A DNA stretch of 64,000 bases from the human T2T-CHM13v2.0 reference genome, Homo sapiens. The notes under the pieces were generated by a model. It searched no databases. It was not told the DNA's origin and saw only the letters and a list, made by a program, of their open reading frames with translations. The position numbers and the translations under genes are program-made. Location: NCBI RefSeq assembly GCF_009914755.1, contig NC_060925.1; one strand, written 5' to 3'. Positions within the stretch are counted from its first letter, which is position 1. Each line of letters opens with the position of its first letter. Below, piece by piece: positions 45,369 to 51,587 of this stretch.

Positions 45369-46745
45369 AAAAAAAGAGGTTTAATTGGACTTACAGTTCC
45401 ACATGGCTGGGGAGGCCTCAGAATCATGGCAGGAGGCAAAAGGTACTGGCAAAAGAAATGGGGAAGAAGCAAAAGCGGAAACTCCTAATAAACCCATCAG
45501 ATCTCGTGAGACTTATTCACTATCACGACAACAGCAGGGTTTGAAAGAATGGCCCCCATGATTCAATTACCTCCCCGAGTCCCTCCCACAACACGTGAGA
45601 ATTCTGGGAGATATAATTCAAGTTGAAATTTGAATGGGACACAGCCAAACCATATCATTCTGCCCCTGGCCTCCAAATCTCATGTCCTCACACTTCAAAA
45701 CCTTCCCAATAGTCCCTCAAAGTCTTAACTCATTTCAGCATTAACCCAAAAGTCCACAGTCCAAAGTCTCATCTAAGACAAGGCAAGTCCCTTCTGTCTA
45801 TGAGCCTGTAAAATCAAAAGCAAGCTAGTTACTTCCTAGATACAACAGGGGTACAGGCATTGGGTAAATACAGGTGTTCCAAATGGGAGAAAATGCCAAA
45901 AAAAAAAAAAAAAAGGCATTACAGGGCCCATGGAAGTCTGAAATCCAGCAGGGCAGACACATTTTAAAGCTCCAAAATAATCTCCTTTGACTCTAGGTCT
46001 CACATCCAGGTCACACTGATGCAAGAGGTGGGTTACAATGGTCTGGGGCAGCTCCGCCCCTGTGGCTTTGCAGGGTACAGCCTCCTTCCCGGCTGCTTTC
46101 AAGAGCTGGAGTTGTGTGTTGTCGTGTCTGCAGCTTGTCCAGGTACACGGCGCAAGCTGTCGGTGGATCTACCATTCTGGGTCTGGAGGACGGCGGTAGC
46201 TCTTCTCTTCTCACAGTTCCACTAGGCGGTACCCCCAGTAGGGACTCGGTGGGGGCTCCAACTCCACATTTCCCTTCCACACTGCCCTAGCAGAGGTTCT
46301 CCATGAGGGCCCCGCCCCGGCAGCAAACTTTTGCTTGCGCATCCAGGCGTTTCCATATATCCTCTGAAATCTAGGTGGAGGTTCCCAAACCTCAACTCGT
46401 GACTTCTGTGCACCCACAGGCTCAACACCACGTGGAAGCTGCCAAGTGGGGCTTCCATTCTCTGAAACCATAGCCCAAGCTGTCCATTGGCCCCTTTCAG
46501 CCATGGCTGGAGCAGTTGGGTAGGGCACCATGTCTCTAGATTGCACACTGCACGAGCACCCTGGGCCCGGCCCATGAAACCACTTTTTCCTCCTGGGCTT
46601 CCGGTCCTGTGATGGGAGAGGCTGCCGTGAAGTTCTCTGACATGGCCTGGAGACATTTTCCCCAAGGTCTTGGGGATTAACATTAGGCTCCTTGCTACTT
46701 ATGCAAATTTCCATGGCTTGAATTTCTCCTAAAAAATGGTTTTTT

Positions 46746-46992: not shown

Positions 46993-49165
46993 TTTTTTTT
47001 TCTACTGCATCATCAGGGTGCAAATTTTCCAAACTTTTCTGCTCTGTTTCCCTTTTAAAATGGGATGCTTTTAACAGTACCCAAGTCACCTCTTGAAAGC
47101 TTTTCTGCTTAGAAATTTCTTCCACCAGATACCCTAAATCATCTCACTCAAGTTCAAAGTTCCACAAATCTCTAGGGCAGGGGCAAAATGCCGCCAGTTT
47201 CTCTGCTAAAACATAACAAGAGTCACCTTTGCTCCAGTTCCCAACAAGTTCCTCATCTCCATCTGAGACCACCTCAGCCTGGACCTTATTGTTCATATCG
47301 CTATCAGCATTTTGGGCAAAGCCATTCAACAAATCTCTAGGAAGTTCCAAACTTTCCCACATTTTCCTGTCTTCTTCTGAGGCCTCCAAACTGTTCCAGC
47401 CTCTGCCTGTTACCCAGTTCCAAAGTCACTTCCGCATTTTCGGGTATCTTTTCAGCAACGCCCCCCTCTATTGGTACCATTTTACTGTATTAGTCCATTT
47501 TCACGCTGCTGATAAAGACATACCTGAGACGGGGAAGAAAAGCTTTAATTGGACTTACAGTCCCACATGGCTGGGGAGGCCTCAGAATCATGGCGGGAGG
47601 CGAAAGGTACTTCTTACATAGTGGTGGCAAGAGAAAATGAGGAAGACGCAAAAGTGGAAATCCCTGATAAAACCATCAGATCTTGTGAGAGTTATTATCT
47701 ACCATGAGAACAGCATGGGAAAGACTGGCCCCCATGATTCAATTACCTCCCCCTGGGTTCCTCCCACAACACATGGGAATTCTGGGAGATGCAATTCAAG
47801 TTAAGATTTGGAAGGGGACACAGCCAAACCATATCATCCCCTTAGAGGGAAGCAGGAGAAGGGAATTAACATTCACTGACACTCCCCTGTGGGCTAGGCA
47901 CTGAGCTGACCACTTGGTTCACACAATCTCCTCTACTCCGCAAAGCAGCCCCGGGAGGAAAGAACCAGCATCTTCATCTGACAGAAGAGTGGTCACCAAC
48001 TCACGGTCACACGGCTTCCACCAGCTCACCCCTTCCTTCAACAGACACTGCCTCCACACAGTGGCCAGCCAGACATCACACTAGATGTGGTCATGGGGTG
48101 GGGAGGGGATACAGTATCGAGCCCTGCCCTCATACAAGAACACCACTTTCTCCACTAGCTCCTTTACCTCTTGCTTATCAATTTCTTTGCCTATAAAATA
48201 AAGAAGCTGCTGATCCCTAAGGATTGTGAGAATAAAGCAAAGTGACATAGCAGACACTGTTGATGTGCTTATCCATATCCCCCGCCCAACTGGAGGTAAC
48301 TGCGGGAACTTTTCTATGTGCACTGATGGCTTCCTGTGTGTCTCTGCCTGGGGGCTTCTCTGGCTGCCAAACACTTGGCCCACCCAGAGGAAGCTGAAGT
48401 GCCAGGAGTTCATGTTCTCGGCCAATAAGGAGTCTGGTTGTCGGTGCATAAATGCCCCAGCTTCTCCATCCCTCGGTGGGATCACTGAGGCATGTTCCAC
48501 ACAGTCTCTTGGCAAGGCCCCAGCAGAAAGAGCTCCGGGTGCCACCAGGAGTAGCCTGTCCATCCACATGCCCTTCATTGTCTTTCCCCATGACTTCCTC
48601 ACCATGCTTCCCTGAAGCACCTCCACATAAACTTCTTGCACCCACATCCTTGTTCAGCGTCAGCTTTGGGGCAAACCCAGCCTAAAACAGTAACATTTTA
48701 CAGCCTGGTACCCAGTAGACACTTAGCAAATGCTGTCTACCTTGACACTCATTTTCATTTTTATAGAAACAGACAGCTTTGAGAACACGGTTGCAGCTCT
48801 AGCTGAGTCACCGGTGGCTCATCAGCATCTTCCAGGAGCAAGTATGGGCCTGTGGCCTGGGGATGCAGCAAGAGGGAGGGGACTGAGGGCCACGGGCCTC
48901 AGCCTGTAGCCTCATGGGTCTGTAGCCTCAGCCACTTGGAAGCTAGGTTAATCTCTGTCATATACACACACTCTACAGTTTATAAAGTTGTTTTCTTGTG
49001 TTCCAGGGCCTACATCCCATTTTCCCTCCCATTGTTCCAAATCATATGTTCCAACTCAGGGTTCTGTGTTCAACACATTAGGCTTCAAGCCTAATGTGCC
49101 AAATGCTCTGCTTGTTGCAAATACACCCCTCCTCCTCCACCACCACCACCTCCCTCTCCTTCCAG

Positions 49166-49504
49166 GTTCCCTTGGGGTCCACCAGGCTGGAGGTGAAGTT
49201 CCCCTGCATCTGGGCAGAGGAGCTGATATGGCTCACCTGCCTTCTAAGCTGGCTGGTGAGGCCCACCAGCCGGCCCATTGTGCCCACCTGGCCATGATTT
49301 TGAGTGCTGGGACCAGGTCAAGGGTGTCACCTTGCCCCGCTACAAGTTAGTCTGCTCTATTAGCATTGGGAGCCAGGGGCAGGACGATGTGGTGGTCTCC
49401 AGCCAGAGCCTGTGGGACCTGCATGCAGACAGCTTTCCCACCTCCCACTATGTGAACCCACGCTCTTCTGCGTGGCACTGGTGCATGACATCTGTTTGGA
49501 GTGA
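49166..49504 (+). pseudogene. Frameshifted Tctex-1 domain (DYNLT4/DYNLT5-like dynein light chain) pseudo-exon
   Basis: Four frame segments join to ...EVKFPCIWAEELI/AHLPSKLAGEAHQPAHCAHLAMILS/DQVKGVTLPRYKLVCSISIGSQGQDDVVVSSQSLWDLHADSFPTSHYVN/TLFCVALVHDICLE*; PRYK, LWD-xx-D and N-x-x-LF...E* hallmarks; polypyrimidine-AG acceptor immediately upstream. Confidence 0.82.
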
Positions 49505-50781
49505 GCCCTGCAGGATGAGGCCCACGTGGGGCCCCACATTAGACCCTGGCACCCAAACCTCAGCCTCCAGCCCATCAGTCAGTGATCCCCTGTGAAAGCA
49601 GCACCTACCTGGGCAACCCCAGCAGCTTCCATGACTCATGGTCCATTAAAAAAAAGAAACAGAGTAAGATGCACCTACGTTTCCCCTCCTTGGGCCACCT
49701 GGGCCACACACACTGCTGAGCTCCTTTGCCTCTGGCTGGAATTATGTCAACCACTGCAGCTCCCAGCTGGATGTACAGATCAGAAGCTCTGAGGGGCAGC
49801 TATCTGTGTCTTTGATTAATAAAAAATGGGAGATAAATTAATAATGACTTAAAACATGCAATTTGGGATCAAAATCTCCCAAAGCATGGGAAAAATAATA
49901 AAAAGGAGAGTTCTTGATAGTGAAAGTCTGGAAATAAATGCTGTCCTCAGAGGTCAACCATGAGTCAGGGCACTGTTGGGGAGGGAGAAAGAAGGGGGAA
50001 CGGGGTCTTACACCCACTCCGTGCCAGGTGCTGTGTTTGGGGTTTACACATTTCCCTCATCCTCACACAACCCCAGGAGACAGTGTTACCATTCCCATTT
50101 TATAGATGAGCAAACTGAGGTTCACAGAGCCCAAGTTACTTGCCCTAGGTCACAGGATCAGTAAGAGACTCAAACCTAGGTCTGCTTCCTTGACAAAGGA
50201 AAACAAAACGACAAAAAAAGAAAGAAAAAAATAGGCCAACAGTGTGGTGCTTGGCAAGTCATTCTGGTTTGAGTTTATGAGGAAGAGGGACAAGTAGAGG
50301 GAACAGCCCATCAGCTATGAATACCAGGAATGATTTATATGATTTACTGCTGTGTCTCCTGCACCTAGAATGGGGCCTGGAACACAGTTCATGCTCAGAA
50401 ATAATCTTCAGTGAATGGCTAAAATGTGTGGGGGGATAAAGAGGCATAGTCCATTCTGAGGTAGGAGAGAGAAAGTGAATGTTTCTAAGCCCCTAGTTTC
50501 TAGAGAGCATTGAACAAGCACATTGGATTTTTTTTTAAATGTTTAATTATGGAACTATTTGAAAAACAGAAAAAGGTAGAAAATAATATAGTAGACATTG
50601 GGGAACTCATTGCCCAGATTTACCAGGGGTTCATATTTTGTCATGTTTATGTCAAGTATTTTTATAGTAAAATACAAATACAGATATGGCTAAAAACCCC
50701 ATCACCCCATCCCATTCCCTTCCACCTATCACCACAGGCCACCACTATCCTTGAAGCTGGTGTGTCTCTGTCTCTTCCTGA

Positions 50782-51587
<806 letters not shown>

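What the first reader, a model, noticed from the sequence alone, without database searches (positions are those of the whole stretch)
49166..49504. Hidden Tctex-1 dynein light chain gene remnant: candidate unitary pseudogene between CDCP2 and CYB5RL
Seen: no single ORF shows it, but changing frame at ~49230, ~49306-49310 and ~49459 gives a contiguous ~110-residue sequence, VPLGSTRLEVKFPCIWAEELI-AHLPSKLAGEAHQPAHCAHLAMILS-DQVKGVTLPRYKLVCSISIGSQGQDDVVVSSQSLWDLHADSFPTSHYVN-TLFCVALVHDICLE*. It follows a good acceptor (cctccctctccttccag) and is followed by ATTAAA (49645-49650) and AATAAA (49818-49823). Established: the KF...helix...helix-PRYKL-V...G...S..LWD...D.......N..LF....V.....E* pattern is the Tctex-1 domain of DYNLT4/TCTEX1D4 and DYNLT5/TCTEX1D1. 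Inference: it looks too divergent to be a recent retrocopy of either paralogue. The acceptor and the lack of an obvious poly(A)/TSD suggest the last exon of a separate spliced paralogue lost in the human lineage, possibly a ciliary or sperm light chain. I cannot tell whether it is already annotated.
Basis: partly seen in the sequence, partly recalled or inferred. Interest (0 to 1): 0.85.

Follow-up and report, generated by a model that had tools for sequence, protein, structure and literature searches.

The report
Dead Tctex-type dynein light-chain gene
Between CDCP2 and CYB5RL on human chromosome 1 lies the broken, unannotated remains of a seventh Tctex-type dynein light-chain gene, most like DYNLT4; it is an ordinary old pseudogene unless other animals prove to keep a working copy.

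Summary
Window 49196-49504 (+) reads as almost a whole Tctex-1 domain once three -1 frame shifts are allowed, and it ends in a stop at the family's own C-terminus. Pfam Tctex-1 matches the central part: 33 bits against a cut-off of 22.8, with E 1.7e-4 for the whole genome and E 7e-8 for the piece alone. It is the only over-cut-off Tctex-1 match in T2T-CHM13 that no RefSeq gene or pseudogene covers. A family HMM built here places the C-terminal piece and the piece upstream collinearly. The relic has no DNA similarity to DYNLT4, DYNLT5 or anywhere else in the genome, so it is not a recent retrocopy. Identity is 44-45% to bird DYNLT4 and 34-35% to human DYNLT4 and DYNLT5. It lacks DYNLT5's intron inside the domain. 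The tree puts it inside amniote DYNLT4 but outside mammalian DYNLT4, on a long branch, and AU tests do not settle the place. The best reading is the relic of a once-selected DYNLT4-like paralogue that is now dead. Whether it is "unitary", with an intact syntenic orthologue elsewhere, could not be tested, because no vertebrate genomes were on hand. None of the 194 named proteins I retrieved is its orthologue.

The parts
49196..49228 (+). Piece 1 core (KFPCIWAEELI), frame of 49100. It would be family-HMM columns 14-24, the start of the Tctex domain.
   Evidence: Collinear ungapped score 4.2 bits, rank 1 of 108 offsets, reached by 39 of 5000 shuffles, but I trimmed it after seeing it. The whole piece 49166-49228 scores -2.9 bits, reached by 274 of 5000 shuffles. 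hmmsearch gave no collinear hit.
49229..49230 (+). Frame break 1: two bases stand where one codon (HMM column 25) is expected, a net -1.
   Evidence: Follows from the frames and the registers. It holds only if piece 1 is accepted.
49231..49305 (+). Piece 2 (frame of 49102), HMM columns 26-50, the two helices of the Tctex domain.
   Evidence: 14.7 bits in the collinear register, rank 1 of 94 offsets, 0 of 5000 shuffles. hmmsearch 2.7 bits at HMM 28-50, reached by 2 of 2000 shuffles. MAFFT placed it at the collinear columns unaided.
49306..49313 (+). Frame break 2: eight bases stand where five codons (HMM columns 51-55) are expected, a net -7. It lies at the place of DYNLT5's phase-0 intron (HMM 51|52), yet there is no intron here.
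   Evidence: DYNLT5 exon limits from RefSeq.
49314..49457 (+). Piece 3 (frame of 49101), HMM columns 56-103: QVKGVTLPRYKLVCS...SLWD...HYVN, the beta-sheet core of the Tctex domain.
   Evidence: Pfam PF03645 33 bits, over the cut-off. Local HMM E 2.2e-13, rank 1 of 2946. tblastn 48-51% identity to bird DYNLT4 over 48-49 aa.
49458..49459 (+). Frame break 3: two bases in a run of C stand where one codon (HMM column 104) is expected, a net -1.
49460..49504 (+). Piece 4 (frame of 49100), TLFCVALVHDICLE plus TGA. HMM columns 105-118, with the stop exactly at the family's C-terminus.
   Evidence: Rank 2 of 2946 six-frame pieces, collinear. 7.9 bits, 0 of 2000 shuffles.
49127..49165 (+). Pyrimidine-rich CCT/CCA tract ending in AG: an acceptor look-alike just before the domain.
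   Evidence: Sequence only. Not tested: no RNA data and no splice model were on hand.
49645..49650 (+). ATTAAA, running into an 8-base A run (49646-49653), 141 bases after the stop. It could be the old poly(A) signal. AATAAA at 49818-49823 is a second candidate.
   Evidence: Sequence only. No flanking target-site duplication was found.

Best explanation
Window 49196-49504 (+) is the dead remnant of a seventh human Tctex-type dynein light-chain gene, closest in type to DYNLT4. The whole Tctex domain lies in one stretch of DNA, as in DYNLT4 and unlike DYNLT5.

Shown: it is a true Tctex-1 homologue; it cannot make a Tctex protein today, because it has three -1 frame breaks and no recognisable start or N-terminal part; it is not a recent copy of any human gene.

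Inferred: the copy arose long ago from a DYNLT4-like gene, by DNA duplication or by retroposition (these cannot be told apart here). It was kept by selection as a working light chain for a long time. It then lost function, very roughly 40-100 million years ago, and has drifted since. It does nothing now.
For: Family membership:
- Pfam match over the cut-off.
- Pieces 2, 3 and 4 match a family HMM collinearly, with the stop at the family's C-terminus.
- The nearest solved structures are Tctex2-type light chains: Chlamydomonas LC2 7kzm_F at E 3e-4, then DYNLT2B.

Not recent:
- The only genome-wide DNA match of 48900-49700 apart from itself is a 25-base stretch at E 0.6.
- blastn against the DYNLT4 and DYNLT5 loci gives nothing better than E 0.14.

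Type:
- Identity over 86 columns is 38-39 to two birds, 37 to a turtle, 30 to human DYNLT4 and 29 to human DYNLT5.
- There is no intron where DYNLT5 has one.
- The tree places it inside an amniote DYNLT4 clade (95/97) and outside mammalian DYNLT4 (100/100).
- Holding it with eutherian DYNLT4 is disfavoured (AU p 0.032).

Once selected:
- About 55% of residues differ from the nearest relatives, yet I see only three indel events and no stop across the four pieces, 49196-49501.
- My simulation needs about 0.35 hits per site to reach 50% identity by neutral drift, and leaves no stop in only 7-17% of runs.
- At the indel-to-substitution ratio of roughly 1:8 to 1:10 that I recall for human neutral DNA (no call supports this figure), about ten indels would be expected.
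Against: - No intact orthologue turned up among 194 named vertebrate proteins. The best is 51% identical over 49 aa, and all are DYNLT4-type. Few lesions would suggest a recent death, and a recent death predicts intact copies in other mammals.
- The searches were limited, however. One search found no candidate at all. One search saw only proteins of 122-387 aa. One search listed 120 of 303 hits.
- The tree position rests on 100 columns and a branch of 1.83. AU tests do not reject a place next to mammalian DYNLT4 (p 0.137), with DYNLT5 (p 0.169) or outside all vertebrate DYNLT4 (p 0.067). I chose the tested groups after seeing the tree.
- No trace of the DYNLT4 N-terminal extension was found anywhere in the window, and single-protein frameshift-aware alignment of the N-terminal half did not stand out (ranks 4 to 187 of 428 bins).
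- The stop-codon argument alone is weak (7-17%).
Confidence: 0.7

Rival explanations
1. It is an ancient processed pseudogene of DYNLT4, or of another Tctex gene, that was dead on arrival. An mRNA copy landed here in stem mammals and has decayed neutrally ever since.
For: - The domain is contiguous, with no intron. DYNLT4 itself has a single coding exon, so a retrocopy would look like this.
- An A run follows 141 bases after the stop, and DYNLT4's own 3' UTR is 110 bases.
- The tree place, DYNLT4-type and outside crown mammalian DYNLT4, would fit a copy made before mammalian DYNLT4 sped up.
- Zero stops at 50% identity still occurs in 7-17% of neutral simulations.
- No intact orthologue was seen.
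Against: - Only three indels across the 306 bases of the four pieces (49196-49501) despite about 55% residue divergence. The stop is kept at the family's exact end.
- ATTAAA is part of the A run instead of lying some 15-25 bases before it, and there is no target-site duplication.
- No trace of the 110-residue DYNLT4 N-terminal part, which a retrocopy of the mRNA would have carried. That part is low in complexity and evolves fast, so this point is weak.
Confidence: 0.2
2. It is a true unitary pseudogene in the reader's sense: the last exon of a separate, spliced, ciliary or sperm light-chain gene that is still intact and syntenic, between CDCP2 and CYB5RL, in other mammals or vertebrates. This is a sharper form of the best explanation, not an alternative to it.
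For: - An acceptor-like tract lies directly before the domain, and poly(A) signals lie after it.
- GC is raised to 0.57-0.59 over 49050-49800, against 0.42-0.49 beside it.
- The few lesions fit a fairly late death.
- The stretch 47843-50973 is not repeat-masked.
Against: - No such protein is among the 105 plus 120 listed hits. All mammalian hits are DYNLT4 proper.
- The ten residues after the acceptor have no family support.
- No upstream exon was found.
- The consensus nomenclature paper counts six paralogues and names no seventh in any species (PMC8754002, passages read).
Confidence: 0.2
3. It is a chance resemblance or a still-working element, such as an exon of an unannotated transcript or a regulatory stretch.
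For: A 111-aa frame is open over 49260-49592.
Against: - Pfam E 7e-8 and local HMM E 2e-13 rule out chance.
- That open frame has no ATG and runs out of the domain into unrelated sequence.
- RefSeq lists no transcript or functional element over 47843-50527.
Confidence: 0.03

Closest known systems
DYNLT4 (TCTEX1D4), human chr1:44.68 Mb, and its vertebrate orthologues
   Same: - Tctex-1 domain with PRYKLVCS, SLWD and LF.VA.VH...(C/L)E-stop.
- The whole domain lies in one stretch of DNA.
- Best tree position is inside amniote DYNLT4.
- Highest identities are to bird and turtle DYNLT4: 37-39 of 86 columns.
   Different: - Only 30 of 86 identical to human DYNLT4.
- No DNA similarity.
- No trace of the N-terminal extension carrying the RVSF motif. 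Its role as the PP1-binding site I take from the abstract and title of PMC3654263 as listed, and from memory.
- Broken by three frame shifts.
- It lies 9.4 Mb away on the other strand.
DYNLT5 (TCTEX1D1), human chr1:66.63 Mb
   Same: - As close as DYNLT4 in the human genome: 37% over query residues 4-46, E 4.3e-4, the best human hit, and 39% over 54 aa by tblastn.
- AU does not reject a pairing (p 0.169).
   Different: - DYNLT5 has a phase-0 intron at HMM 51|52 and a phase-1 intron before the domain. The relic is unbroken at the first of these.
- The C-terminal signature differs: NVYAVYLE against LVHDICLE.
Annotated human DYNLT pseudogenes (LOC103156999, LOC100287951, DYNLT3P1, DYNLT3P2)
   Same: Non-functional Tctex-1 copies found by the same Pfam scan.
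   Different: Those are copies of DYNLT1 or DYNLT3 that score 40-98 bits and carry RefSeq names. This one is DYNLT4/5-type, has no near parent in the genome and is unannotated in RefSeq.

Membership tests
Tctex-1 family (Pfam PF03645) | Match to the family profile above the curated cut-off | tested here: met
   33.0-33.1 bits against a cut-off of 22.8, profile 35-87 of 95.
Tctex-1 family (Pfam PF03645) | Whole domain present and collinear, ending at the family's C-terminus | tested here: met
   Local HMM columns 26-118 of 118 are covered collinearly by pieces 2-4, with the stop right after column 118. Columns 14-24 are only weakly supported and columns 1-13 not at all.
Tctex-1 family (Pfam PF03645) | Intact open reading frame able to give a light chain | tested here: not met
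   Three frame breaks (49229-30, 49306-13, 49458-59) and no start codon in register. It is a relic of a member, not a working member.
DYNLT4 orthology group | Falls inside the DYNLT4 clade on a tree | tested here: inconclusive
   Inside amniote DYNLT4 at 95/97 support but on a branch of 1.83. AU p is 0.067 for a place outside all DYNLT4 and 0.169 for a place with DYNLT5.
DYNLT4 orthology group | N-terminal extension with the RVSF motif (recalled as the PP1-binding motif) before the domain | tested here: not met
   The HMM of the N-terminal parts gives nothing near the locus. The best hits in the window, at E 0.27-0.39, are elsewhere.
Processed pseudogene (retrocopy) | No introns, a poly(A) tail after a signal, flanking target-site duplications, a recognisable parent | tested here: inconclusive
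   It lacks the intron in the domain, but so does DYNLT4. The A run overlaps ATTAAA instead of following it. No target-site duplication was found. There is no parent at the DNA level. At this age these marks would be lost anyway.
Unitary pseudogene | Intact orthologue at the syntenic place in other species and no working copy in human | not testable with these tools
   No vertebrate genomes were on hand. Among 194 named proteins none is closer than 51% over 49 aa.

The most novel reading that the evidence does not exclude
The relic marks a seventh vertebrate Tctex-type light-chain gene, a DYNLT4-like paralogue between CDCP2 and CYB5RL. This gene would still be intact and expressed, probably in testis or ciliated cells, in some mammals or other vertebrates. 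It would be missing from the dynein nomenclature, which counts six.
Probability: 0.2. Interest if true: 0.5.

Novelty: new member of a known kind. Interest (0 to 1): 0.3.

Why it matters
The human dynein nomenclature lists six Tctex-type genes (PMC8754002, passages read). This adds a dead seventh that RefSeq does not annotate. As it stands it is a small correction to the pseudogene catalogue and a data point for how the DYNLT4/DYNLT5 branch grew on chromosome 1p. It would matter more if a working orthologue exists elsewhere. That would be a new light chain to place in cilia or sperm dyneins, and a dated human-lineage gene loss.

Tried and rejected
- Second relic on the minus strand. tblastn of DYNLT4 proteins gave weak minus-strand hits at 47940-48365 (best E 3e-4 in a 4-kb database, 21-26% identity; 20 of 105 queries scored 22 bits or more). 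The translation shows no Tctex motifs, and no piece from that stretch and strand is among the top 25 of 2946 in the family HMM search. I rejected it as chance. The queries are close kin of each other, so their agreement counts for little.
- Weak upstream + strand hits at 48846-48962 (E 0.015-0.76). The N-terminal HMM does not back them.
- chr4:162462784-162462936 (E 2.6). It has no Tctex features and scores at most 1.0 bit. Chance.
- Frameshift-aware alignment of the N-terminal half-domain of six proteins against both strands of the window. The locus ranked 87, 187, 41, 152, 43 and 4 of 428 bins, which is not convincing on its own. The profile-based register test was sharper.
- P0103 and P0105 looked like a possible second mammalian paralogue (43-51% to DYNLT4). 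They are DYNLT4 models with the middle of the domain missing and score 15-19 bits on the window.
- Protein search with the window's own 111-aa frame found no candidate. That blank means little: the 151-aa pigeon protein P0084, which carries PRYKLVC, was in the length range and still was not picked.
- The Atlas search could not be run.
- Literature. No paper holds 'CDCP2' + 'CYB5RL' + 'pseudogene' or 'unitary pseudogene' + 'Tctex'. 'TCTEX1D4' + 'pseudogene' gave 5 papers, none on this locus judged by title and abstract. No paper holds 'Tctex-type 4-like', 'DYNLT4-like' or 'TCTEX1D4-like'. Supplementary tables were closed and might list such a pseudogene. GENCODE and Ensembl could not be consulted.

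Rows dropped:
- The family HMM used 101 of the 105 proteins (without P0103, P0105, P0020, P0049) plus human DYNLT5.
- The N-terminal HMM used the stored proteins of 200-260 aa, without five named ones. I did not print the number.
- The tree used 29 of the 194 stored proteins, picked to span vertebrate classes. To these I added human DYNLT4 and DYNLT5, four human outgroup rows and the window row.

Full report
WHAT IS THERE

- Piece 1 is VPLGSTRLEVKFPCIWAEELI, in the frame of 49100.
- Piece 2 is AHLPSKLAGEAHQPAHCAHLAMILS, in the frame of 49102.
- Piece 3 is QVKGVTLPRYKLVCS...SLWDLHADSFPTSHYVN, in the frame of 49101.
- Piece 4 is TLFCVALVHDICLE plus TGA, in the frame of 49100.

IS IT MORE THAN CHANCE

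Yes.
- A six-frame scan of the whole T2T genome with Pfam Tctex-1 (PF03645) lists 21 places at E up to 10. Window 49305-49463 is one of them, at 33 bits (cut-off 22.8, E 1.7e-4 for the genome).
- Of the 15 places over the cut-off it is the only one under no RefSeq gene or pseudogene. The others are exons of DYNLT1, 2, 2B, 3, 4 and 5 and four named DYNLT1/DYNLT3 pseudogenes.
- hmmscan of the frame piece alone gives E 7.1e-8. The three other pieces give no Pfam match on their own.

I then built a 118-column HMM from 101 DYNLT4-family proteins plus human DYNLT5.
- Among all 2946 six-frame pieces of the window, piece 3 ranks first (E 2.2e-13, columns 56-103). The frame holding piece 4 ranks second (E 0.88, columns 97-118).
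- Shuffle controls: piece 4 is matched by 0 of 2000 shuffles. Piece 2 is matched by 2 of 2000 and aligns at columns 28-50. Piece 1 is matched by 495 of 2000 and aligns in the wrong place.
- Scored without gaps in the register that collinearity demands, piece 2 gives 14.7 bits. That is the best of 94 offsets, and 0 of 5000 shuffles reach it.
- The whole of piece 1 gives -2.9 bits (274 of 5000 shuffles). Its part from KF onward gives 4.2 bits, the best of 108 offsets (39 of 5000 shuffles). I chose that trim after looking.
- Single-protein frameshift-aware alignment of the N-terminal half was not convincing, with ranks from 4 to 187 of 428 bins.

The three breaks are each -1 modulo 3:
- 49229-30: two bases for one codon.
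- 49306-13: eight bases for five codons.
- 49458-59: two bases for one codon, in a run of C.

No stop lies within the pieces, and the TGA sits right after the family's last residue.

WHAT IT IS NOT

It is not a recent copy.
- The 801 bases around it match nothing else in the genome beyond a 25-base stretch (E 0.6).
- Sensitive blastn against the DYNLT4 and DYNLT5 loci gives nothing better than E 0.14.
- The stretch 47843-50973 is not repeat-masked.

A second relic on the minus strand (47940-48365), suggested by weak tblastn hits, did not survive the HMM search. A weak chr4 hit did not survive either.

WHICH PARALOGUE

In the human genome the closest are the last exon of DYNLT5 (37%, E 4.3e-4) and DYNLT4 (39%, E 1.7e-3).

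Over the 86 columns filled in the relic, identities are:
- 38-39 to two bird DYNLT4;
- 37 to a turtle;
- 32 to a lungfish;
- 31 to a sturgeon;
- 30 to human DYNLT4;
- 29 to human DYNLT5.

Bird DYNLT4 is simply the slowest-evolving member. It is also the row closest to human DYNLT4 (44-47 of 86).

Two things lean to DYNLT4.
- The domain is unbroken where DYNLT5 has a phase-0 intron (between TISE and VIKAQ, HMM 51|52), and DYNLT4 carries its whole coding sequence in one exon.
- The signatures PRYKLVCS and LF.VA.VH are those of DYNLT4.

A maximum-likelihood tree of 36 rows and 100 columns places the relic inside a starred amniote DYNLT4 clade (95/97) and outside the mammalian DYNLT4 clade (100/100). 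Its end branch is 1.83, and the bootstrap had not settled.

AU tests, on groups I named after seeing the tree:
- with eutherian DYNLT4, p 0.032;
- with all mammalian DYNLT4, p 0.137;
- with DYNLT5, p 0.169;
- outside all vertebrate DYNLT4, p 0.067.

Only a late, eutherian-type DYNLT4 origin is disfavoured. The rest is open.

No trace of the DYNLT4 N-terminal extension was found in the window.

WAS IT EVER A WORKING GENE

This is inference. About 55% of residues differ from the nearest relatives, yet there are only three indel events and no stop across the four pieces (49196-49501).

In my simulation, neutral drift needs about 0.35 hits per site to bring identity to 50%. It leaves no stop in 7-17% of runs, so that argument is weak alone. 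At the indel-to-substitution ratio I recall for human neutral DNA (about 1:8 to 1:10; recalled, no call), roughly ten indels would be expected, against three seen.

I therefore think most of the divergence built up under coding constraint, and that the gene died later. The lesion count fits very roughly 0.05-0.2 neutral changes per site, some 40-100 million years. This cannot be dated without other genomes.

THE OPEN TENSION

A fairly late death predicts intact copies in other mammals, and I saw none.
- (human DYNLT4 domain as query, proteins of 122-387 aa) listed 105 proteins. All were DYNLT4 proper or broken models of it.
- (a profile including the window pieces and DYNLT5 exons, proteins of 83-264 aa) listed only the best 120 of 303 hits, all DYNLT4-type.
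- (the window's own frame as query) found no candidate.
- tblastn of all 194 stored proteins against the window gives at most 51% identity over 49 aa.

These searches cannot see short proteins well, did not show DYNLT5 orthologues, and left out thousands of unnamed candidates. The blank therefore lowers the unitary reading but does not refute it. Death in stem placentals would reconcile both facts.

WHAT IS KNOWN

- The consensus dynein nomenclature counts six human Tctex-type paralogues and calls DYNLT4 and DYNLT5 poorly characterised (PMC8754002, passages read).
- Five full-text searches found nothing on this locus or on a DYNLT4-like gene.
- Supplements were closed, and GENCODE and Ensembl were out of reach, so I cannot say the relic is unannotated everywhere, only in RefSeq.

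VERDICT

This is a real, old, unannotated pseudogene of the DYNLT4/DYNLT5 branch of the Tctex-1 family, probably DYNLT4-derived, and it is not functional. Its interpretation is partly supported. The 'unitary, spliced paralogue' claim awaits comparative genomics. Interest is modest.

Noticed in passing
window 49127-49165: A CCT/CCA-rich low-complexity tract lies directly before the relic. It reads as a run of nine prolines in the frame of 49101. It makes the 'good acceptor', but it could just as well be a simple-sequence expansion. Tandem Repeats Finder did not call it at score 30.
   Followed up: partly
window 49260-49592: A 111-aa frame is open from inside the relic to 88 bases past the family's stop. 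It has no ATG, and after HYVN it is unrelated to the family.
   Followed up: yes
window 47940-48365, minus strand: Weak tblastn hits of bird and reptile DYNLT4 (E 3e-4 to 0.1; 20 of 105 queries at 22 bits or more). The family HMM and the reading of the translation do not confirm them, so I take them for chance.
   Followed up: yes
proteins P0103 (Bos mutus) and P0105 (Ceratotherium simum): These public DYNLT4 models lack the middle of the Tctex domain (180 and 166 aa). They look like gene-model artefacts, not paralogues.
   Followed up: partly
proteins P0089, P0151, P0184, P0191 (sturgeon, bowfin, skate, whale shark): Public sources name them 'Tctex1 domain-containing protein 1-B-like', 'DYNLT5-B' or 'DYNLT5'. 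Yet the one whose sequence I read, P0089 (sturgeon), carries the DYNLT4-type N-terminal RVSFSGLPL motif, and all four sit with DYNLT4, not with human DYNLT5, on the tree. The names look misleading.
   Followed up: partly
window 45916-46417: RefSeq lists an H3K4me1 hESC enhancer about 3 kb upstream of the relic. I looked for no link to it.
   Followed up: no
window 50528 (3' end of CYB5RL, minus strand): The relic lies tail to tail with CYB5RL, about 1 kb from the end of that gene's 5.2-kb last exon (given annotation).
   Followed up: no
G000 chr1: 44.68, 54.05 and 66.63 Mb: DYNLT4, the relic and DYNLT5 all lie on chromosome 1p within 22 Mb. That would fit old local duplications, which I did not test.
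   Followed up: no
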